Positions 9,658 to 36,914 of a stretch of DNA of 37,162 bases are shown in pieces. The number at the start of each line of letters is the position of its first letter. Position 1 is the stretch's first letter. The notes below the pieces were generated by a model, which saw only the letters and a list, made by a program, of their open reading frames with translations, searched no databases and was not told the DNA's origin. This stretch comes from a virus (lineage: Duplodnaviria; Caudoviricetes). The DNA is taken from IMG/VR virus record IMGVR_UViG_3300042396_000043, positions 1 to 37,162 of that record; one strand, given 5' to 3'. The position numbers and the translations under genes were made by a program.

Positions 9658-9888
9658 TTACCCTATGTCATTCCATGTGTTTGTACCAACCGGAACATCT
9701 GTCCATGTGTTTTGATTGAATACAGTTGATAATGTTGCTAATACTGAAATTGATGCCGTTCCATTAACTGTTGTTGCAAATGTCCACCCACTATTATTAC
9801 CAGCGTCAGTTGAGTCTACAGCAATAAATGTATCTGCCGGTGATGCTGCGCTGTCTATAACACTAAGATAATTTAAGTATAGTTTCAT
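9658..9888 (-). CDS. Small virion protein carrying the YLxIxDS...GNNxGWxF motif
   Basis: Motif shared with 15342..15782; C-terminal WTDVPVGTNTW. Confidence 0.65.
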   Translation of the reverse strand: MKLYLNYLSVIDSAASPADTFIAVDSTDAGNNSGWTFATTVNGTASISVLATLSTVFNQNTWTDVPVGTNTWNDIG

Positions 9889-9895
9889 TATTAAC

Positions 9896-10282
9896 TCACG
9901 CTAAAGTTATTGTTAAGCCACTAGCCGGAATAGAAAATAACTCATTTGTAGTAATTGTTTCTGGTGTTGTTAGTGGGTCGCTATATAGCAAGTTCCCACT
10001 TGTTAAAGCATCGTATATAGCAATGTAAGTAACAGTACCCCAATCCGTTGTAGCTGCATCAAAAGTAACTGCTGATGAGTTTGTAGTTATACCATTTGAA
10101 GGCGCAGTTAATGAAATAGCTTTACGCACATAAGATGCACCAGATACTTCTGCACCTGTACCGCCATCTGTAGGGTCAGTTAAGAATAAAGCCAAGTAAA
10201 CTGTTGATGGTGATGTAAACGATGTTGACCGTAACGTAGCATTGATAACTGCATTAGCTAAATATGTGGACATTCCTGACAT
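9896..10282 (-). CDS. Conserved phage structural/tail-associated protein
   Basis: YLALFxxDP...GAEVSGxSYxR...WGTVT...IYDALTSGNLLY pattern. Confidence 0.65.
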   Translation of the reverse strand: MSGMSTYLANAVINATLRSTSFTSPSTVYLALFLTDPTDGGTGAEVSGASYVRKAISLTAPSNGITTNSSAVTFDAATTDWGTVTYIAIYDALTSGNLLYSDPLTTPETITTNELFSIPASGLTITLA

Positions 10283-10902: not shown

Positions 10903-11415
10903 TTAATCCTTATGTTTAACTAATACTACTATTCCATTATCAATAGCAATGTGTCTGATAATTCCAAATCTATTGGATAGTTTACCTTGCCACCATTCCC
11001 ACGGTTCTTGTATTAAATGTGCATTACGACCATCGGGCAATACTTTAACTGCTGCGCCTGTATGAATAGTAAAAATTCCGTATGACAAAACACATCGTTG
11101 CAAATCATCTAGCACATCATCAAGGCATTCAGGTTCTATGTGTTCTAGTACGTCTATACAAGCTACTAACTCTGCCGGTGATGGTGTTGCATCCCATAAT
11201 GGGTTACTAGGTTCGTATGGTATGTATTTAACGTCTTGCGTTAAACTATCTCTTAAACGGCATTTGCCAGCACCATAATCCAATAACTCTTCAATTTGGT
11301 ACTCTGCTATCACCATGTCAACAATAGGCGCAAAAAACGTGCTAGAGATGCCATATTCAGGGTTTAAATGCAAATCTGATTGCATCTTACGGTAGTCTTC
11401 CGTAATTAAACTCAT
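10903..11415 (-). CDS. Class I SAM-dependent methyltransferase (non-DNA)
   Basis: LLDYGAGK motif I and CIDVLEHI motif. Confidence 0.85.
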   Translation of the reverse strand: MSLITEDYRKMQSDLHLNPEYGISSTFFAPIVDMVIAEYQIEELLDYGAGKCRLRDSLTQDVKYIPYEPSNPLWDATPSPAELVACIDVLEHIEPECLDDVLDDLQRCVLSYGIFTIHTGAAVKVLPDGRNAHLIQEPWEWWQGKLSNRFGIIRHIAIDNGIVVLVKHKD

Positions 11416-12740
11416 AACTGCTTTTCTACTCTACGGATAACATCAATCCAGTCAGCGTCATCTTGATACATTAGTCGCATTGTCTTAAACCAGTACATAC
11501 TAGGCTGTGCATAACGCCATTGATGACGTTTAGGTACTAAGCACCATGTCTTAATGCCTAAAGCAGCAGCACAAAGCTGTGCAGTAGTATTGACACCTAT
11601 TACCATGTCTAATTCAGCGATTAAAGCAGCTAAATCATCATAATCATCCGTGTTTACAGCGCAGTCTGGGTAGTAAACACCATCAATCTTGTCTTCTACG
11701 ATGTAATCTAAGCTGACTAGCTGTATATCTTTACGTTTAAGCAATGGTGCAAGGTCAGTTGCTTTAATTTGCCGACCTTTAGCATTGGTCATCTTCTTGC
11801 CACCGTGTGTGGTAATACCAATTACTGTTTTCTTCCAAGAACCAAATAGTTCTTTCCACTCTTTACGCTTGTTTTCATCAGCCACTAGATAGGTAGTGCC
11901 AGGGAAGTCTTTATTGGTGTGTCTAAAGAACTGTGGTAACGCACCAATAGCACATCTAGCATCAATGTTTGCGTCTTGCACCCATTCTGGCATTGTATCT
12001 CTACGAGTTCCGTGTACTTCTGCAGTAGGGAAGCTGCGCTTAAACAAAGTAGCTAGTCTTGGGTCACAATCAATATAGACTTTTTCGCTTTTATTGATTA
12101 AGTCAGGTAAACATGACGCATAAAATATCTCATCACCTAAACCTTGTTCACCATACACTACAACACGCTTGCCTTCTGAACCATCCCACCTAGACTCATC
12201 GCCATAGGTGTATTCTTTTCTAAACTTGCCACCTAGTGACTTATCCCACTCTTTCCAACCAGCATCCCATTCGCCTCTAGCTAAATAGCAATGCGCCAAG
12301 TTAAGTTGAGCATTTAAGTCTGTTGGTGATATTTCTAATGCTGTCTTAGCAGCCTTCTCTGCAGCATCCCAGTCACTTAACTGAACCAATGTTGCCGACA
12401 TATTTGAATATGCCATAGCATAGTTGTTATCTAACTCTGCCGACTTAATAAAATATCTAATCGCTTCTTCTGGTCTGTCTAGTTCATGGCAAGCACGACC
12501 TAGAGATGTCCACAATGCCTTGTTAGTTGGGTTCTCTTGTAATGCCCTACGAAATAGCTGATAAGCAAAAGCTGTTCTGTCAGACATTAACCAGATATAA
12601 CCAAGAAAATGTAATGTTGCTGCATCGTCTGGGTATTCTTCTAACACCGCATAAATCAATGGCATTGCATTTTCATAATCATCAACTTCAATTAACTGAT
12701 GTATTGCCACTTGGCATTCTTTTAATTCATTCTTATCCAT
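11412..12740 (-). CDS. TPR-repeat protein with a C-terminal GT-B (GT9-like) glycosyltransferase domain
   Basis: About five TPRs, then WDG...VVVYGEQGLGDEI...DLAALIAELDMVIGVNT...AAALG...WRY. Confidence 0.85.
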   Translation of the reverse strand: MDKNELKECQVAIHQLIEVDDYENAMPLIYAVLEEYPDDAATLHFLGYIWLMSDRTAFAYQLFRRALQENPTNKALWTSLGRACHELDRPEEAIRYFIKSAELDNNYAMAYSNMSATLVQLSDWDAAEKAAKTALEISPTDLNAQLNLAHCYLARGEWDAGWKEWDKSLGGKFRKEYTYGDESRWDGSEGKRVVVYGEQGLGDEIFYASCLPDLINKSEKVYIDCDPRLATLFKRSFPTAEVHGTRRDTMPEWVQDANIDARCAIGALPQFFRHTNKDFPGTTYLVADENKRKEWKELFGSWKKTVIGITTHGGKKMTNAKGRQIKATDLAPLLKRKDIQLVSLDYIVEDKIDGVYYPDCAVNTDDYDDLAALIAELDMVIGVNTTAQLCAAALGIKTWCLVPKRHQWRYAQPSMYWFKTMRLMYQDDADWIDVIRRVEKQL

Positions 12741-15075: not shown

Positions 15076-15342
15076 TTACCTAAATAGTTTAAATTTGTTA
15101 TCAGTCTGTATAGCTGACATTTTACCTGTGTTTATAACGTCTTGTAGCTGTTTTTCTATTTGGTTTAATAGTTGCATAGCTATGACTAAACGATTGTGCG
15201 TCTCAGAGTCACCTAGTGCGCTTGAAGCCATACTCTTGATGATTCCGTCACGTACTTTTTCTATTGATTCTTTGAATAATGGGTTATCAAGCACTTGAGA
15301 TGCTTGTTCACCACGTTTTACTTCATTTAGTTGATTGTCCAT
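15076..15342 (-). CDS. Small helical protein between portal and scaffold
   Basis: RGEQASQVLDNPLF...INTGKM; typical position. Confidence 0.7.
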   Translation of the reverse strand: MDNQLNEVKRGEQASQVLDNPLFKESIEKVRDGIIKSMASSALGDSETHNRLVIAMQLLNQIEKQLQDVINTGKMSAIQTDNKFKLFR

Positions 15343-15782
15343 TAATATCCCAATGCTTTGTTAATCAAACGACCTCTGACAGTTAAACCACTAACACGAG
15401 TAGTATAAACCCCATCAGCCTTTATTTTAACAATATCTGCCTCAATTTGTCCTGCACCACCTAAACGAGATACTTTGTTAGGTAATGCTGATGATATTTG
15501 ACCATAGGCTATTGCACCGGCTTCAGCTAAACGGTTATTTGCAGATGTAGTAATTGTTCCATTAATAAACCAGCCTGTATTGTCACTAACATCAATACTA
15601 TTGGTAGCAATAAAATACTGTGGTGGAGTAGCATTTGAATCTTGTATGCTTAAATACTCAACATTAATGCCAAATAGCCATCCAGTATTGTTGCCAGAAT
15701 CTAATCCACGACTAACTACAAATGAATCTGTCGGTGTTTGTACAGAATCTTGTACTTCAACATAATTTAAAACTGTAGCCAT
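15342..15782 (-). CDS. Virion accessory protein with two tandem YLxIxDS...NNTGWxF motifs
   Basis: NYVEVQDS...DSGNNTGWLF and EYLSIQDS...DVSDNTGWF. Confidence 0.7.
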   Translation of the reverse strand: MATVLNYVEVQDSVQTPTDSFVVSRGLDSGNNTGWLFGINVEYLSIQDSNATPPQYFIATNSIDVSDNTGWFINGTITTSANNRLAEAGAIAYGQISSALPNKVSRLGGAGQIEADIVKIKADGVYTTRVSGLTVRGRLINKALGY

Positions 15783-15791
15783 AATGTATCC

Positions 15792-18302
15792 TTAAACTTT
15801 AGCCAAAGTCCATTGAACTCCAGGTGTAGTTGAATTAAGCGTAATTAAGTTTCCACTAGTGCCTGATACAGTAAAGTTTTGTACGCTTGTTGTAGTTCCT
15901 GCTGTAAAGGTAATTGTAGCCGGTTGTACAGTATTGCTGATGTTAGCAAACTGATTGCTGCCAGTAATAGTCAATGCACCAGCGCCACCTTGATTAAGTG
16001 TGTATGGGTATGTTTTGCTACCACCTGCAAATGTCTTAGCAGTACCGTATGTCATGTCAATCGTACCAGTACCAGTTAATGATAGGTTGGTAGATGTAGT
16101 TGCTGTCCAGCCACCGCCATTTAATGTAATTTTACCATTAGTACCAAGGTTTAATGTACGAGCATTACTATTAGATGAACTAAATGCACCTGAAGTTAAT
16201 GTTTTTCCATTTACATTTAGAGTACCATTAGTTAATGTGTAAGTACGAGTAGAACCTGAAGTTAAATTATCTTGTAGTTGAACTGTACCACCTACACCAT
16301 TTTGTATGATAGGACAGTCTATTGTTACACCATTTGTAGTAATTTGTTGTGTACCTGATGTTGCTAAAAATGACATCGAAGTTGCAGTTGCTGTATAAGT
16401 TAAACCACTAGGTATTGTTAGGTTTCCATAAATTGCAGAAGAAGCATTTGTAATTGTTCCACTAAAACCTGTTAGATTTATATTTTTAACACCTGAAAAA
16501 CTAGCTATATCTGTACCAGCAGTAAAATTTACATTAATTGCATTTGCTTCACTTAAACCTGCTGTTGTACCTAAATAAACATTTCTTCCAGCTGTTGAAC
16601 CTGAATAAGTACAATTAACAGTTGAAGTACCTGTATAAGTAAATCCAGTAGCAGTACCCATAGACCAAATAGTACCTGAATTACCAGTTAAATTAATAAC
16701 TCCAGTTGTACCAAAAGCAATAGCACGAGTATTAGAGTTACTGGAACTCAATACAGTACAGGTTAGTGTTTTGTCGTTAAGGTTTAGTGTGCCTGATGTT
16801 AGAGTAGCTGCACCTGCTGATGTTAAGTTATCAGCAAGTGTTATTGTATCTGTAGGGCTATTAATTAATATGCTTTGAGTAAATGATACGCCAGCAGATG
16901 TAATGGTTTGTGTTTTGTTATATCCAACAAATGCTAAAGTGCCTGACCCAGTAGTAGTAACAGATGAACTAAAAGTTAAGTTTCCATAAATTGATGGGCT
17001 AAAAGCCCCAGTTGCAAATGTCATAGCATTTGAACGTGTTGAAGCATTAATAGTACCAATTTGCCAAATATTATCTATAGTAATAGTTGCAGAAGTATTT
17101 AACCCAGTATTTTCAATTATTACTGTATCTTGAGGTAAAGGAAAGTTATTTACATCTACAGCACCGCCTGATGTTAAAGCCCATGCTGTTGCTGACCAGT
17201 TACCACCAGCTACTAAATTCCAATACTTAGTTACACCAGCAGCAAAAGTTATATTTGAGTTATTACCGGCATTACCTAAACGAGTACCTGACCATGTACC
17301 TGATGCACCAGCAGCAGCAATATCTCTAAAGTCAACATCATTTAAAGTAGCTATTGTTGCTACCGTTAAAGTTACTTGTGTGCCGATACCAACGTTACCT
17401 ACAACAATTATTCTGCGTATTGCAGTATTTGCTGTACCTAAAGTCAGCGTTCCATTTACAGTAGTAGATGCAGGCAAAGCTATAAATCTAACACCTGTTG
17501 TACTAGGACTAGTAAATGTTAAATTATTAAAAGTATTATTGCCTGAAATTGTGTATGTAAAACCTTGTGATGCACTTGTAAACGATACGTTATAAAATGT
17601 TAGCCCACCGCCAGCAAAGGTAGTGGCTGTAGCAGAACAAGTGATTTGAGATGTACCAGCGTTAAATGTAAGCCCACCAGTAGAACTATTAGTAAAGGTA
17701 GTAGATAAAGTTACTGTTGATGAGCCTAAAGTTACAACTTTTGTATTTGCATTAGGATTCATTAATAATGTTGCACAAGTGACATTGTAATTATTTGTTA
17801 TAAATGTCCCGCCAGATGAAGATATATTACCTAATGTTGATATTGCGCTTCCTAAAGTCCATTCACCGCCAATACCGCTAAAATATACTGATATATTGCT
17901 TAAACTTACACCATTCGTTGTAAATGTTTTACCTGTTGTTGTTGCGGATAAAAATAATAGTGAGCCAGCAGTTGCAGAGCAAGTAAAATTAGAAGCAGGC
18001 AATGTCATTGAACCAAAGCAACTTAAATATGCTGTAGCACCCATAGTAAATGTCATTACAGCATCTAAAGCACCACCAGCACCGCCTGTACTAAAATCAC
18101 GACATAATGCAGGTGAAACAGAAGTACCAGTTACAGTAACAGCAAATGCAGTTGTACCTGTATTGGAGTTAGCGTCAAAGATAACATCGTCTACAGACGT
18201 AGGCGCACTAGCACCACTAGCACCGCCTGAAGTTGCTGACCAATTTGTTGTTGATGTGGCATCCCAGTTGCCTGAACCACCTACCCAGTATCTAGTTGCC
18301 AT
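15792..18302 (-). CDS. Large Thr/Gly/Ser-rich repeat protein (beta-helix/adhesin-like fiber or decoration protein, 836 aa)
   Basis: Two units starting RYWVGGSGNW and KYWNLVAGGNW; repeated ITTNG / LxDNLT / SSSNSNxR sub-repeats. Confidence 0.7.
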   Translation of the reverse strand: MATRYWVGGSGNWDATSTTNWSATSGGASGASAPTSVDDVIFDANSNTGTTAFAVTVTGTSVSPALCRDFSTGGAGGALDAVMTFTMGATAYLSCFGSMTLPASNFTCSATAGSLLFLSATTTGKTFTTNGVSLSNISVYFSGIGGEWTLGSAISTLGNISSSGGTFITNNYNVTCATLLMNPNANTKVVTLGSSTVTLSTTFTNSSTGGLTFNAGTSQITCSATATTFAGGGLTFYNVSFTSASQGFTYTISGNNTFNNLTFTSPSTTGVRFIALPASTTVNGTLTLGTANTAIRRIIVVGNVGIGTQVTLTVATIATLNDVDFRDIAAAGASGTWSGTRLGNAGNNSNITFAAGVTKYWNLVAGGNWSATAWALTSGGAVDVNNFPLPQDTVIIENTGLNTSATITIDNIWQIGTINASTRSNAMTFATGAFSPSIYGNLTFSSSVTTTGSGTLAFVGYNKTQTITSAGVSFTQSILINSPTDTITLADNLTSAGAATLTSGTLNLNDKTLTCTVLSSSNSNTRAIAFGTTGVINLTGNSGTIWSMGTATGFTYTGTSTVNCTYSGSTAGRNVYLGTTAGLSEANAINVNFTAGTDIASFSGVKNINLTGFSGTITNASSAIYGNLTIPSGLTYTATATSMSFLATSGTQQITTNGVTIDCPIIQNGVGGTVQLQDNLTSGSTRTYTLTNGTLNVNGKTLTSGAFSSSNSNARTLNLGTNGKITLNGGGWTATTSTNLSLTGTGTIDMTYGTAKTFAGGSKTYPYTLNQGGAGALTITGSNQFANISNTVQPATITFTAGTTTSVQNFTVSGTSGNLITLNSTTPGVQWTLAKV

Positions 18303-18525
18303 CTTCAGTCACCTCTTCATTAAGTTGTTCTTCACTAGGTGCAGTTACAATAGCGTACCAATCATCCCAGCGTTTTTGTTCCATTGCTTCTAATTGCTCT
18401 TGTGTTGTGTTGTTATACTCTTCTTCAGTTAAAACAATAGCGTCTACTAAAGTATAAGTACCATCTGTGTGTTCAAAATTGATAGTAACGTACCCATCAA
18501 CATTAGTTGTTTTAATAATTGACAT
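18292..18525 (-). CDS. Small acidic protein (possible fiber chaperone)
   Basis: DAIVL...EAMEQKRWDDW; coupled to the large repeat protein gene. Confidence 0.6.
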   Translation of the reverse strand: MSIIKTTNVDGYVTINFEHTDGTYTLVDAIVLTEEEYNNTTQEQLEAMEQKRWDDWYAIVTAPSEEQLNEEVTEDGN

Positions 18526-22532: not shown

Positions 22533-23267
22533 TTACCTCAGTATTTTTCTGACTAAATCTAAATCTGCTTGTGTATCTACACCTATGCTTGCTACCTTAT
22601 CTGAAACAAACACGCTAATCTTGTGTCCATTCCATAATGTTCTTAACTGTTCTAGTGATTCTATACCTTCAATCTTAGAATGTTCTAGCAAGTGATAATC
22701 TTTTAGGAACTTAACTCTGTAAGCATAAATTCCTACATGACTATAACCTGTTACCTCTTCCGTAATAGCACCTCGTGGATAAGGTATAGCAGCACGACTA
22801 AAATATAAAGCATAACCGTTCTTATCCATTACAACTTTAACGTGATTCGGACTGTGTAATGTTATGTTGTTTAAAATTGGGTGACACGCAGTAGCAATAG
22901 AAGCTAATGGGTACTCTGCCAAATTTAAAGCTGTTTCGTTAATAATCTGTGGGTCAATTAAAGGTTCATCACCTTGTACGTTTACGACAATCTCGTTGTC
23001 ATCCCACTCTAATGTCTTAACTACTTCTGCAATTCTGTCTGTGCCAGTTTGATGTTGGTCACTTGTCATTACAGCCCTAAATCCATGCTGTATGGCTGCA
23101 TCAAATATATCTGTATGGTCTGTTGCTATGATAACTTCACTAGCATCACTCTTTGCTGCTTGTTGTGCAACTCGTATGACCATTGGCTTGCCGTTTATAA
23201 GTGCTAATGGCTTTGCCGGTAACCTTGTACTTCCATAACGAGCCGGTATTACTACTTTAAATGTCAT
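22533..23267 (-). CDS. kdsB: CMP-Kdo synthetase (3-deoxy-manno-octulosonate cytidylyltransferase)
   Basis: IPARYGSTRLPAKPL, HQTGTDR, VNVQGDEP, ALYFSR, HVGIYAY, ESLEQLR, VDT. Confidence 0.95.
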   Translation of the reverse strand: MTFKVVIPARYGSTRLPAKPLALINGKPMVIRVAQQAAKSDASEVIIATDHTDIFDAAIQHGFRAVMTSDQHQTGTDRIAEVVKTLEWDDNEIVVNVQGDEPLIDPQIINETALNLAEYPLASIATACHPILNNITLHSPNHVKVVMDKNGYALYFSRAAIPYPRGAITEEVTGYSHVGIYAYRVKFLKDYHLLEHSKIEGIESLEQLRTLWNGHKISVFVSDKVASIGVDTQADLDLVRKILR

Positions 23268-23605
23268 TTGACGTAACCAACCGTATCTCGTTCAATATCA
23301 TCGTGATTAAATTCTGTCCAGTATATTTCAAAAGCGATTGTAGGTTCTAGTGCCTCAAACTGATGAAACTCACCTGGTGCAACTTTAGTGTATTGACCTG
23401 CTGTTAATATCGTTACATCAACCAAGTCGTAACTCTTCCATACGCTAATCTTTAATTTGCCTGACTCTACAAAAAACCCATTCCACTTATGCTTATGAAT
23501 GTGTTTGCTGCAAGTACCACCTTTAACAATATCAATGCGATGAAACTCTAAACTTGCATTGGCTTCTATGTTTTGGGTACTTCCCCATATTTTGCCGGCA
23601 ATCAT
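23264..23605 (-). CDS. Cupin-fold protein (sugar isomerase-like)
   Basis: KIWG, CSKHxHxxK...F.VESG, PGEFHQF. Confidence 0.8.
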   Translation of the reverse strand: MIAGKIWGSTQNIEANASLEFHRIDIVKGGTCSKHIHKHKWNGFFVESGKLKISVWKSYDLVDVTILTAGQYTKVAPGEFHQFEALEPTIAFEIYWTEFNHDDIERDTVGYVK

Positions 23606-24372
23606 TTTGTATAATTATATTTTACAATTTGTTCAACTACAGACTCAAAGTCTTCTAGCTTCAACATATTAAGCCCATCACTAGGCGCATTGTCTGGGTC
23701 AGGGTGAACCTCAATAAAGAAGTTTTGTACGCCTAATGCACTAGCTGCTCTTGCTAATGACGGTACATACTCTCTATTGCCACCACTACTTGTTCCTAGA
23801 CCACCAGGCTTTTGTACTGAATGTGTAACGTCAAACACTACATTATCGTAATTGTTCAACATATAATCCATGCCAGTATAATCAACCACCAAGGTATTAT
23901 AGCCAAAACTCGTGCCACGTTCAGTAATCCAAACTTCTTTGGCATTATCAGTCTTTGATAATATACCTGCAACATCCCAAGGTGCTAAGAACTGACCTTT
24001 CTTGACGTTCACAATCTTATCGGTTAAACACGCTGCTTGTATTAAGTCTGTCTGACGGCATAAGAAGGCAGGTATCTGTAATACATCAACAGCATCACCA
24101 AACTCTTCTATAAACTCTACGTCATTAACACTATGTACGTCAGTTAGTATCTTTAATTCAGGTATCTCACGCTTCATGTCAGCAAAGTCATATAGCGTAT
24201 ATACAAGACCAATGCCTCGTTTACCTTCAATACTACTTCTGTTAGCCTTATCGTAGCTGGCTTTAAAGTAATACTCTATGCCATGCTTTGCACAAATATC
24301 TGCACAATGCTTTGCAATATGAAGACTAAGTTCTAATGTTTCGTGCTGACAGCACCCTGCAATAATTTTCAT
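23602..24372 (-). CDS. kdsA: Kdo-8-phosphate synthase, metal-dependent type
   Basis: KASYDKANRSS, LQIPAFLCRQTDL, KKGQF, ERGTSFGY, DVTHSVQ; Cys/His/Glu/Asp ligand positions present. Confidence 0.96.
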   Translation of the reverse strand: MKIIAGCCQHETLELSLHIAKHCADICAKHGIEYYFKASYDKANRSSIEGKRGIGLVYTLYDFADMKREIPELKILTDVHSVNDVEFIEEFGDAVDVLQIPAFLCRQTDLIQAACLTDKIVNVKKGQFLAPWDVAGILSKTDNAKEVWITERGTSFGYNTLVVDYTGMDYMLNNYDNVVFDVTHSVQKPGGLGTSSGGNREYVPSLARAASALGVQNFFIEVHPDPDNAPSDGLNMLKLEDFESVVEQIVKYNYTK

Positions 24373-24382
24373 TAATTAGCAA

Positions 24383-25078
24383 TCAAAGTTTACTGGTCTT
24401 ATTGTTGCCTGTTAATGGATGTATCATGTTATGGTAAGTCTGCCACCAGTCATCGCTGTAGTCTGTGGCTTGGTAATCAGTAAAGCATGGTGTACCTAAT
24501 GTAGTATGAACCAGTTTTGCTTTGCTGTTGTAATTATATTCTGTGGCTAACCAGTTCCACTCTATTGGCAATGAACCTATATCTTTATCATCTAACCAAC
24601 TAAAGCGATGCAAATAACTGCCTGTTGATGCCATTACCAATTCTGGTGTTAGGGCTTTGTTTTTTTCGCAGTTAAACAGTATGACGCTTGACCAGTTCTT
24701 GCGTGGATAACTTTCATTCTTTGCGCCCAAGTATTTAACTGGGTGCTGGGTAATGTAATTATGCTTAACGACTTGAACGGCTTTGCTGTCATCATATAGT
24801 GCGAGTAACTCCGCTATGTCTGCCTTAACAATCATGTCACCATCAGCAAATATAGCCATACCTTCGTAAGCACACATTGCAGGGACTAAAAAGCGAGAGT
24901 AGATGAAAGCATTACTTCCATCGGTGTGCGTTTCCTTATAGCCTTGCAACGTGTTCAATGCTAACGGTACAAATGATACCGGTATGCTGCTGTGTTCTAT
25001 TACTGATTGACAAAATGCGTGATACGCAACAGGTTCAGCACTATTGTCAAATCCTACAAATATACGTAAAGGTTTCAT
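24383..25078 (-). CDS. GT-A (GT8-like) glycosyltransferase
   Basis: IFVGFD, FxYSRF, FADGDM (DxD), YPRKNWSS, LPIEWNWL, HxTLGTP. Confidence 0.85.
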   Translation of the reverse strand: MKPLRIFVGFDNSAEPVAYHAFCQSVIEHSSIPVSFVPLALNTLQGYKETHTDGSNAFIYSRFLVPAMCAYEGMAIFADGDMIVKADIAELLALYDDSKAVQVVKHNYITQHPVKYLGAKNESYPRKNWSSVILFNCEKNKALTPELVMASTGSYLHRFSWLDDKDIGSLPIEWNWLATEYNYNSKAKLVHTTLGTPCFTDYQATDYSDDWWQTYHNMIHPLTGNNKTSKL

Positions 25079-25158
25079 TACCAATGGTGAATAGCGTTAA
25101 TTACCAATGTAATGTTAGCAATTACAGCCAACAGGATAATAAACCAATGGTCGTTCAT
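25078..25158 (-). CDS. 26-aa hydrophobic micro-protein
   Basis: MNDHWFIILLAVIANITLVINAIHHW; abuts the upstream stop, and its TAA overlaps the ATG of the glycosyltransferase. Confidence 0.55.
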   Translation of the reverse strand: MNDHWFIILLAVIANITLVINAIHHW

Positions 25159-35963: not shown

Positions 35964-36914
35964 TTATTTAATTGGTTGCTTATTTCTTTCTAGTATTTTA
36001 ACTATGTTTGGGTCAAATACAACAAAATTTTGAGTACCTTTCATTGCATCTCTACTAGGGTTATCAAAATACTTTACACCTTTAACTCCATATTGATTTA
36101 ATAGTGTCTCACCAACATTAGGTTGACCTCTAATAATTTCCCATGTATTTAAAAATTGTGCAGGTGTTATATCTTTACCATATAGCAATCTTGCATCTCC
36201 ACCTAATTCTGCCAAATCATCACTTGTAAGAGATTTTTTTGTTTTATTAATTGCAGCCATTACTGTAGGATTTTGCTGACTAATTGGTTTATCCCAATTT
36301 AACATATTTTCTATATGTGTATCTGGAATATCAACTTTATATAAATTGCTTGTACCTAAATTTTTTACATCTGACTTTTTATTGACGGAAGATAATATGT
36401 TATTTATATTGGTTGAAAAATTAAGTTCGTCTGGTCTAGAATTTTTAACCCAATCATTAACAAATTTCTTAGCTTTATTTAATCCAAGTTCATCTACTAA
36501 TTGTGCTGCTTTATATTCTGGAGTTCTTGGTTCTACTTCTTTTCCAAAAATTGTTCGTCTTGGAGAAGCTATTTCACCAGCAGGTTCTATATTTGCATAA
36601 GATTGTGCAACTTTAGGATTTTCAGCAAAATATAATCCATGACCGTATGCTTGTGCGCCTTCTCCACTACCAATCTTAGTAGGGTCAAACTTATCAAATC
36701 GGTAAGGACTACCATGCCATGCTGTAATTCCCATAGGAGCAAATGTCATAGCAACATCTAACGCTTCATTAGGCATAACTGGCGATGGTTTGTTTAATTC
36801 TTGTAAGGCTGTCATGTCACCAGACAATAGACCACCTAGCGCATTACGGTATGGTGCGCCTTTAGCGTATTGTGCTTTTGCTGCTTCGGTAATGTAATCT
36901 AATAATCCTGCCAT
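35964..36914 (-). CDS. ADP-ribosyltransferase of the ART-PolyVal type, possibly virion-packaged
   Basis: AWHGSP..FDKFD...GEGAQAYGHGLYFAE..VA..Y; C-terminal NFVVFD. Confidence 0.75.
   Translation of the reverse strand: MAGLLDYITEAAKAQYAKGAPYRNALGGLLSGDMTALQELNKPSPVMPNEALDVAMTFAPMGITAWHGSPYRFDKFDPTKIGSGEGAQAYGHGLYFAENPKVAQSYANIEPAGEIASPRRTIFGKEVEPRTPEYKAAQLVDELGLNKAKKFVNDWVKNSRPDELNFSTNINNILSSVNKKSDVKNLGTSNLYKVDIPDTHIENMLNWDKPISQQNPTVMAAINKTKKSLTSDDLAELGGDARLLYGKDITPAQFLNTWEIIRGQPNVGETLLNQYGVKGVKYFDNPSRDAMKGTQNFVVFDPNIVKILERNKQPIK

What the first reader, a model, noticed from the sequence alone, without database searches (positions are those of the whole stretch)
15342..18302. Split repeat protein whose terminal cap motif is encoded in the next, in-frame gene
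Seen: the 836-aa protein has two units. Unit 1 ends ...VTLTV...DVDFRDIAAAGASGTWSGTRLGNAGNNSNITF, whereas unit 2 stops at ...QWTLAKV*, just before the equivalent segment. The next gene is in frame (TAA GGA TAC ATT ATG), has its own RBS, and starts with two copies of a similar segment (YVEVQDS...DSGNNTGWLF; YLSIQDS...DVSDNTGWF). Inference: the fold is completed in trans, so the small protein acts as a two-plug adaptor docking fibers to the virion. Stop read-through is a less likely alternative. The whole cassette sits between portal and scaffold.
Basis: partly seen in the sequence, partly recalled or inferred. Interest (0 to 1): 0.72.

Follow-up and report, generated by a model that had tools for sequence, protein, structure and literature searches.

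The report
Detachable beta-helix cap docks phage fibres
In this lake phage and a group of its relatives, a long predicted beta-helix protein stops just before the 35-residue end-piece that most of its homologues carry in the same chain; that end-piece is encoded on other genes, including known tail proteins in relatives, where it is predicted to complete the fold and likely serves as a movable plug that clips the fibre onto the virus particle.

Summary
Observation confirmed. The 836-aa protein is a predicted beta-helix that ends where 76 of its 119 best homologues continue into a ~35-aa cap; 33 end at the same point. The next gene starts with two caps.

The in-frame junction is incidental: 2 of 14 adjacent junctions are in frame, and some caps lie upstream. 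Read-through is unlikely.

Free caps track capless helices: 12 of 13 capless loci have one, against 0 of 59 fused loci. These loci are related, so the counts are not independent. Relatives show helix, cap and the same anchor module in one gene, split, or anchor alone. Caps are also grafted onto a tail-tip J protein (a clean 43-residue insertion), a DUF1833 tail protein and a baseplate wedge.

A complex model puts cap 2 on the helix's last rung (0.79, best control 0.34). Best reading: the cap is a portable plug that completes the fold in trans and docks the fibre on the virion. Binding by both caps, the anchor's position and the fibre's ligand are untested.

The parts
15792..18302 (-). 836-aa predicted parallel beta-helix protein, two units (about 1-355 and 356-836), no terminal cap; likely a virion fibre
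   Evidence: pLDDT 94.4, pTM 0.83, all-beta; Z 15.8, rmsd 4.0, 275 aligned to Vag8; tailspikes Z 12-14
17238..17342 (-). diverged internal cap closing unit 1 (residues 321-355), in cis
   Evidence: weak profile hit (13.1 bits; 4.8 bits); ordered in the model
15798..15926 (-). last rungs of unit 2 (residues 793-835), the predicted socket for the cap
   Evidence: interface residues
15780..15794 (-). stop codon overlapping a Shine-Dalgarno-like TAAGGA, 6-nt spacer, ATG
15672..15782 (-). cap 1 of the 146-aa protein (extra, somewhat diverged copy)
   Evidence: 40.5 bits; absent from 7 single-cap orthologues
15564..15668 (-). cap 2 of the 146-aa protein, the predicted plug
   Evidence: 56.3 bits; residues 39-69 form the modelled interface
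15345..15542 (-). 65-aa module, a stand-alone gene after the portal gene in relatives that lack the helix; inferred virion anchor
   Evidence: fused behind helix and cap in L031/L032; no PHROG or Pfam match for the two stand-alone examples scanned
9658..9888 (-). 76-aa protein: third cap (9778-9888) plus a short rope-like segment and a Trp-containing tail
   Evidence: 53.7 bits; orthologues in L001, L058, L208/L211; cap pN 0.035, pS 0.286 against L001 (3 and 7 changes)
9896..10282 (-). GP4 gp80-like fibre protein, directly upstream of the 76-aa gene
   Evidence: PF23140 E 5e-43; PDB 8jou E 1.7e-13
18292..18525 (-). 77-aa acidic protein that travels with the helix gene in split and fused loci; possibly a chaperone
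   Evidence: seen by eye upstream of the helix gene in L001, L005, L006, L011, L013, L030-L032, L217 and phage DC31; no family
15076..15342 (-). 88-aa gene that follows the anchor module at this site; native to the site, not part of the inserted cassette

Best explanation
The 836-aa protein is a predicted beta-helix, likely a virion fibre, that ends without its last rung and cap; the 35-residue cap encoded on separate genes is predicted to stack on the open end and finish the fold, and so likely works as a plug that ties the fibre to whatever virion protein carries it. In this phage the plugs sit on the 65-aa module encoded after the portal gene (two caps) and on a short rope-like protein encoded after the gp80-like fibre gene (one cap), so one fibre gene would supply two kinds of site. 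SHOWN in sequence: the split, the three caps, fused and split forms with the same tails, co-occurrence, caps on known tail proteins of relatives. PREDICTED: the fold and the cap 2 interface. INFERRED: stable binding in the particle, the anchor role of the 65-aa module, binding by cap 1 and by the 76-aa protein, and a non-enzymatic adhesin role.
For: (1) The cap belongs to the domain: fused in 76 of 119 best homologues and repeated once per 330-420-aa unit in large bacterial proteins, many with type IX secretion tails. (2) The break is precise and recurrent: 33 of 119 end within about one residue of the same point. (3) Co-occurrence among 73 distinct helix ends: 12 of 13 capless loci hold a free cap (the 13th, L082, lacks its upstream DNA), 0 of 59 fused loci do, 1 end was open. 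In loci found from the cap side, 7 of 7 capless helices have a free cap, 5 of them new loci. Of 25 loci L033-L057 found with the anchor, 24 have neither helix nor cap and 1 is fused. (4) Natural series at the portal-scaffold site: anchor alone; helix-cap-anchor in one ORF (L031, L032); helix, stop, cap-anchor (L030, L001, window). The same fused/split pair exists for a second tail (L006, L015 against L067, L080). (5) Caps on recognised virion proteins: a 43-residue insertion in a J-like tail-tip protein with a capless helix gene 1.5 kb away (L217); the N-terminus of a DUF1833 minor tail protein (L157); inside a baseplate-wedge-like protein (L153). In L011 and L014 the cap ends an upstream gene. 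(6) Complex model of residues 356-836 with residues 1-76: score 0.79, best of 3 controls 0.34; the mark was reached by 116 of 157 solved complexes and 2 of 215 mismatched pairs (counts hold only roughly, own alignments used); runs agree in 100% of contacts; partner pLDDT at least 74; residues 819-823 and 830-833 pair with cap residues 43-51. (7) Precedent: a BppU hairpin completes a BppA sheet in Tuc2009 (PMC4742702, passages); split nozzle complementation in A1002 (PMC13730344, passages).
Against: No experiment and no virion proteomics. All 13 split forms of the first census fall in one 23-row clade mixed with fused forms; the quick tree needs 7 changes, but well-supported branches force only 1, so the counts are not independent events. 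The census used a query made from capless ends, kept 80 of 519 hits and scanned one strand of partial contigs. AlphaFold folds the capless end at pLDDT about 96 without a partner, so nothing here shows that the cap is needed. Halves of split genes tend to pass the complex test, and the model may reflect fused homologues. Two free-cap ORFs had no capless helix detected (L208, a 4.4-kb contig; L171, apparently split earlier in the helix), L153 shows no helix gene in 8 kb, and the L019 partner appears to be caps only. The anchor module matches no family or solved structure.
Confidence: 0.72

Rival explanations
1. The cap acts in trans only as a transient folding template or anti-aggregation lid, as autotransporter autochaperone domains can, and the fibre attaches to the particle by another route.
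For: Autochaperone domains rescue beta-helix passengers in trans (PMC5767081, passages citing Oliver 2003); open solenoid ends fray or aggregate (PMC13288671, passages). Some carriers are little more than caps (L019; several 89-133-aa proteins).
Against: Most carriers examined join the cap to tails that end the fused proteins or to known tail proteins. A folding aid would not need to sit inside a J-like tail-tip protein. No other anchor is evident in the 836-aa protein.
Confidence: 0.13
2. The split is a neutral gene fission. The helix works without a cap and the free caps are leftovers on proteins that have their own jobs.
For: Confident model without the cap; split forms cluster in one clade; two homologues end halfway through the cap (P0014, P0016).
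Against: Caps are duplicated, moved 6 kb, placed upstream and inserted into unrelated genes; 0 of 59 fused loci keep a free cap; the remote cap shows few amino-acid changes (3 non-synonymous against 7 synonymous; small numbers).
Confidence: 0.09
3. Stop read-through (or recoding) makes a fused helix-cap-anchor protein at some frequency.
For: In frame here and in L001; a natural fully fused form exists (L031, L032).
Against: 12 of 14 adjacent junctions are out of frame, with gaps of -4, -1, 1, 2 and 4 nt; caps lie upstream in L011, L014 and L217; the 9-nt gap is explained by the ribosome site and recurs at an unrelated junction; no tRNA gene in the genome.
Confidence: 0.04
4. The TAA is an assembly error and the gene is one ORF.
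For: Only one run, a possible source, spans the site.
Against: 33 of 119 homologues end at the same point; L001 and L030 have different junction letters with the same break; a 98%-identical protein starts at the same Met.
Confidence: 0.01

Closest known systems
Lactococcal phage Tuc2009 BppU extension and BppA (PMC4742702, passages read)
   Same: A short segment on a virion protein completes the beta structure of an accessory, carbohydrate-binding-like protein and thereby attaches it.
   Different: There a hairpin completes a beta-sandwich at one fixed site. Here the segment is the last rung and cap of a beta-helix, exists fused in most homologues, and is moved, multiplied and grafted onto several unrelated carriers.
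Branched receptor-binding proteins of Klebsiella podophages KP32, K11, KP34: conserved peptide and branching domain (PMC13352976, abstract read; PMC6872550, listing only)
   Same: A short portable peptide docks a second receptor-binding protein on the virion without covalent linkage.
   Different: There the peptide is on the fibre's N-terminus and binds a separate branching domain. Here the peptide is on the virion side and the socket is the fibre's own unfinished C-terminus.
Pseudomonas phage A1002 split nozzle, and gp80-type dimers on rope proteins in A1002 and GP4 (PMC13730344, abstract and passages read; the GP4 paper itself not read)
   Same: A split structural protein is made whole by beta-strand complementation. 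The window has a gp80 homologue followed by a rope-like gene, which here carries a cap.
   Different: That split is a beta-propeller nozzle between two large fixed partners, not a reusable tag. That the 76-aa protein is a rope is inferred from position and sequence style only.
Autotransporter beta-helix passengers (Vag8, pertactin-type) and their autochaperone domain (PMC5767081, passages read)
   Same: Similar fold (best structural match Vag8, Z 15.8, 11% identity); a C-terminal element can act in trans.
   Different: No signal peptide or barrel is evident. The autochaperone is about 110 aa and was supplied in trans by experimenters; this cap is about 35 aa and is naturally on separate genes.

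Membership tests
Parallel beta-helix (autotransporter/tailspike-like fold) | Stacked parallel beta rungs | tested here: met
   Predicted model, all-beta, pLDDT 94.4; VIA-align Z 12-16 at rmsd 4-5 to Vag8, tailspikes and pectin lyases. Foldseek gave no PDB hit at E 0.001 or better.
Enzymatic phage tailspike (depolymerase) | Trimer with an N-terminal virion anchor | not tested
   No oligomer model was run; no N-terminal anchor domain is recognised.
Enzymatic phage tailspike (depolymerase) | Catalytic acidic pair in a groove | tested here: inconclusive
Autotransporter autochaperone | About 110-aa beta-sandwich next to a translocator barrel | tested here: not met
   The cap is about 35 aa; no Pfam hit for either protein at E 0.1; phage structural context.
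Branched RBP system (KP32 type) | T4 gp10-like branching domain on a primary RBP | tested here: inconclusive
   No such Pfam or PHROG hit among the late proteins scanned; absence of a hit does not exclude it.
Branched RBP system (KP32 type) | Docking peptide at the N-terminus of the secondary RBP | tested here: not met
   The shared peptide is on the partner and the modelled socket is the C-terminus.
Fold-complementation docking (Tuc2009 BppU-BppA, A1002 nozzle) | Donor segment completes the acceptor's fold | tested here: met
   By prediction and by fused homologues only.
Fold-complementation docking (Tuc2009 BppU-BppA, A1002 nozzle) | Both partners present and bound in the virion | not testable with these tools
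   Uncultured phage; no proteomics or map.
Programmed stop read-through | Frame conserved across relatives | tested here: not met
   2 of 14 adjacent junctions in frame.

The most novel reading that the evidence does not exclude
A single capless fibre gene is displayed at several places on the particle, with number and position set by where and how often a 35-residue plug is pasted into structural genes (post-portal module, gp80 rope, tail tip J, DUF1833, baseplate wedge; 1 to 4 plugs per carrier). This would be a natural, portable split-solenoid tag that sets fibre valency.
Probability: 0.42. Interest if true: 0.84.

Novelty: new variant of a known kind. Interest (0 to 1): 0.7.

Why it matters
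It gives a testable account of how a large, unnamed family of freshwater phage proteins attaches to particles (2,756 proteins matched the C-terminal part at E 1e-10 or better). It also suggests how fibres move between phage types and virion sites through a 100-base insertion. A natural 35-residue tag that completes a beta-helix would allow direct tests of how caps control beta-solenoid folding and aggregation, and could serve as a protein-joining tool. Docking by fold completion is known in phages. A reusable, multi-copy version built from a solenoid cap was not found in my searches. Earlier unchecked notes of this scan describe similar splits in other beta-helix families.

Tried and rejected
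Named phages: no match for the 146-aa protein or the junction DNA; one record, Limnohabitans phage DC31, matches the helix. Prokaryote genomes: 52 pattern matches, none confirmed. PDB by sequence: nothing significant for the cap, the anchor alignment or a rope-like relative. ESM Atlas: only unnamed viral clusters for the helix; no hit of 0.9 or more for the anchor. The 146-aa protein folded alone gave pLDDT 66.8 and pTM 0.32; with 32 rows this does not show that it is unfolded. Promoter scan: 7 sites against 13.1 expected, none used. The careful tree did not finish; the quick tree is cited. No significance test was put on the co-occurrence table because the loci are related. Literature: four searches for a split or trans-capped phage beta-helix gave 0, 0, 0 and 1 papers; the one (an archaeal virus preprint) was seen as a listing only. 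The library lacks most subscription papers. No supplements were read.
Full report
CONTEXT. The window is a complete 37,162-base virus record with direct terminal repeats. Its portal, adaptor and major capsid proteins match SU10-type Pfam families, and one gene matches the GP4 gp80 fibre family. The two best-matching runs are lake metagenomes and may be the source. The late genes run on the - strand: portal, 77 aa, 836 aa, 146 aa, 88 aa, scaffold, capsid.

OBSERVATION. The 836-aa protein has no Pfam or PHROG match. AlphaFold2 on 113 rows gives an all-beta model, pLDDT 94.4. It aligns to Vag8, tailspikes and pectin-lyase-type beta-helices at Z 12-16 and 5-12% identity. Foldseek found no PDB hit at E 0.001; its nine strongest viral hits are uncultured Caudovirales proteins, apart from one unnamed entry. 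A whole-genome search finds three free caps: two on the 146-aa protein and one opening a 76-aa gene directly after the gp80-like gene. The internal cap of unit 1 is only weakly similar.

THE CAP IS PART OF THE DOMAIN. Of the 119 best homologues of residues 560-836 (out of 2,756), 76 continue directly into the cap, 33 stop within about one residue of the window's end point, and 10 were not classified; two of those end mid-cap and one has the cap's halves in swapped order. A cap profile hits 2,099 clusters at 50% identity. Among the 148 new proteins listed, 108 are long and 40 are 450 aa or shorter; most of the short ones carry 2-4 caps plus a short tail. In many of the long ones the cap recurs every 330-420 residues. 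Of 22 proteins scanned, 9 passed the Pfam cut-off for a type IX secretion tail.

THE FRAME IS INCIDENTAL. Adjacent helix-to-cap junctions have gaps of 9, 9, 2, -4, -4, -1, 1, 4, 4 and -4 nt and -4 in four more. Two of 14 are in frame: the window and its close relative L001. The 9-nt gap follows from a ribosome site that begins with the stop codon, and recurs at the adaptor-gp80 junction. In L011 and L014 the cap ends a gene upstream of the helix. Read-through cannot be the general rule. It is not strictly excluded for this one locus.

FREE CAPS TRACK CAPLESS HELICES. Among 73 distinct helix ends in loci L001-L140, 59 are fused, 13 capless (the window included) and 1 open. Twelve of the 13 capless loci hold a free cap; L082 starts inside the helix gene, so its upstream side is unseen. 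None of the 59 fused loci holds one. From the cap side (L141-L221), 66 distinct cap ORFs split into 53 fused, 7 free with a capless helix, 2 free without one detected and 4 long. Of the 4 long ones, two look fused by eye, one is L217 and one L153. All 7 capless helices there have a free cap; 2 of the 7 repeat contigs already counted. Limits: partial contigs, one strand scanned, 80 of 519 hits kept, and relatedness. All 13 split forms lie in one 23-row clade (support 97) mixed with fused forms; 7 changes on the quick tree, 1 forced by strong branches. A single origin followed by re-fusions is not ruled out.

WHAT CARRIES THE CAP. At the portal-scaffold site, relatives show a natural series: a 65-aa gene alone, with no helix and no cap in 24 of 25 loci L033-L057 (several are the same contig in two collections); one ORF of helix, cap and that module (L031, L032); and helix, stop, cap plus module (L030, L001, window). 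The helix cassette was therefore inserted in front of a native small gene, to which it is tied covalently in some phages and, by inference, through the cap in others. A second tail shows the same fused and split pair. Caps also sit on proteins with known virion roles. In L217 a 43-residue insertion, essentially the cap, interrupts a J-like tail-tip protein relative to a 42%-identical homologue, and a capless helix gene lies 1.5 kb downstream. In L157 the cap opens a DUF1833 minor tail protein. In L153 it lies in a baseplate-wedge-like protein after gp25- and gp6-like genes, with no helix gene in the 8-kb contig. The window's 76-aa gene has orthologues after gp80-like genes in L001, L058 and L208/L211. 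In GP4, gp80 dimers are strung on a separately encoded rope protein (PMC13730344, passages). That the 76-aa protein is such a rope is my inference.

MODEL OF THE COMPLEX. Residues 356-836 with residues 1-76 scored 0.79, best of 3 controls 0.34. The mark was reached by 116 of 157 solved complexes and 2 of 215 mismatched pairs, counts that hold only roughly with my alignments. Runs agreed in 100% of contacts; partner pLDDT was at least 74. Cap 2 residues 43-51 lie on residues 819-823 and 830-833, as a further rung would. No solved chain resembles the cap by sequence, but halves of split genes tend to pass this test, so it supports the reading without showing it. Cap 1 made no listed contact. With one helix copy and only 3 of 32 alignment rows covering cap 1, that says nothing about it.

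MECHANISM. The helix is made without its last rung, perhaps helped by the 77-aa protein that travels with it (inferred from gene order). The cap on a structural carrier completes the fold and fixes the C-terminus to the particle, leaving the N-terminal unit outward (inferred). The composition, 20% Thr and about 5% charged residues, fits an adhesin better than an enzyme, but this is untested. Confidence in trans completion plus docking is about 0.72. The two-plug stoichiometry is about even: 7 orthologues manage with one cap, while carriers with 2-4 caps are common.

COMPARISON AND NOVELTY. Docking by fold completion is known from Tuc2009 BppU-BppA (PMC4742702, passages) and the A1002 nozzle (PMC13730344, abstract and passages). 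Peptide docking of second fibres is known from KP32-type phages (PMC13352976, abstract), and action of a beta-helix end element in trans from autotransporter experiments (PMC5767081, passages). The system works like these but is a member of none of them on the features tested. Four literature searches found no description of it, within a library that lacks most subscription papers. Earlier notes of this scan report comparable splits in other families. They are unchecked; they suggest the theme recurs but are not support. Verdict: real, conserved and larger than first reported; a new variant of a known kind; interest 0.70.

Noticed in passing
window 22533-25084 (-): Cluster of a cytidylyltransferase, a cupin, a DAHP-synthase-family protein and a weak GT8 glycosyltransferase upstream of the terminase genes. 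With the TPR protein and methyltransferase after the capsid gene (10903-12740), it suggests a sugar-modification pathway, possibly for the virion.
   Followed up: no
window 35964-36914 (-): 316-aa ORF with a short match to ART-PolyVal (31.4 bits, cut-off 31.2).
   Followed up: no
PQ492658.1 (Limnohabitans phage DC31), L028 9001-13119: An unannotated ORF of more than 1,373 aa of this helix family runs off the start of the record; only short opposite-strand ORFs are annotated there.
   Followed up: partly
P0117, P0014, P0016: One homologue has the two halves of the cap in swapped order; two end halfway through the cap.
   Followed up: no
L171 6720-10216: A 982-aa gene ends and an overlapping 182-aa gene carries further rungs plus the cap: apparently a second, earlier split point.
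   Followed up: no
P0011, P0012: The 65-aa module also opens other proteins without a cap; in P0012 it precedes a region matching PHROG tail and virion proteins, which fits a general anchor.
   Followed up: partly
ESM Atlas structure row 3: A 71-member viral cluster of 299-aa proteins matches residues 1-310 at TM 0.95: possibly single-unit capless helices.
   Followed up: no
P0132-P0279: The helix unit, with its cap, is an unnamed repeat domain of large secreted bacterial proteins up to 7,700 aa; no Pfam model covered it in the 22 proteins scanned.
   Followed up: partly
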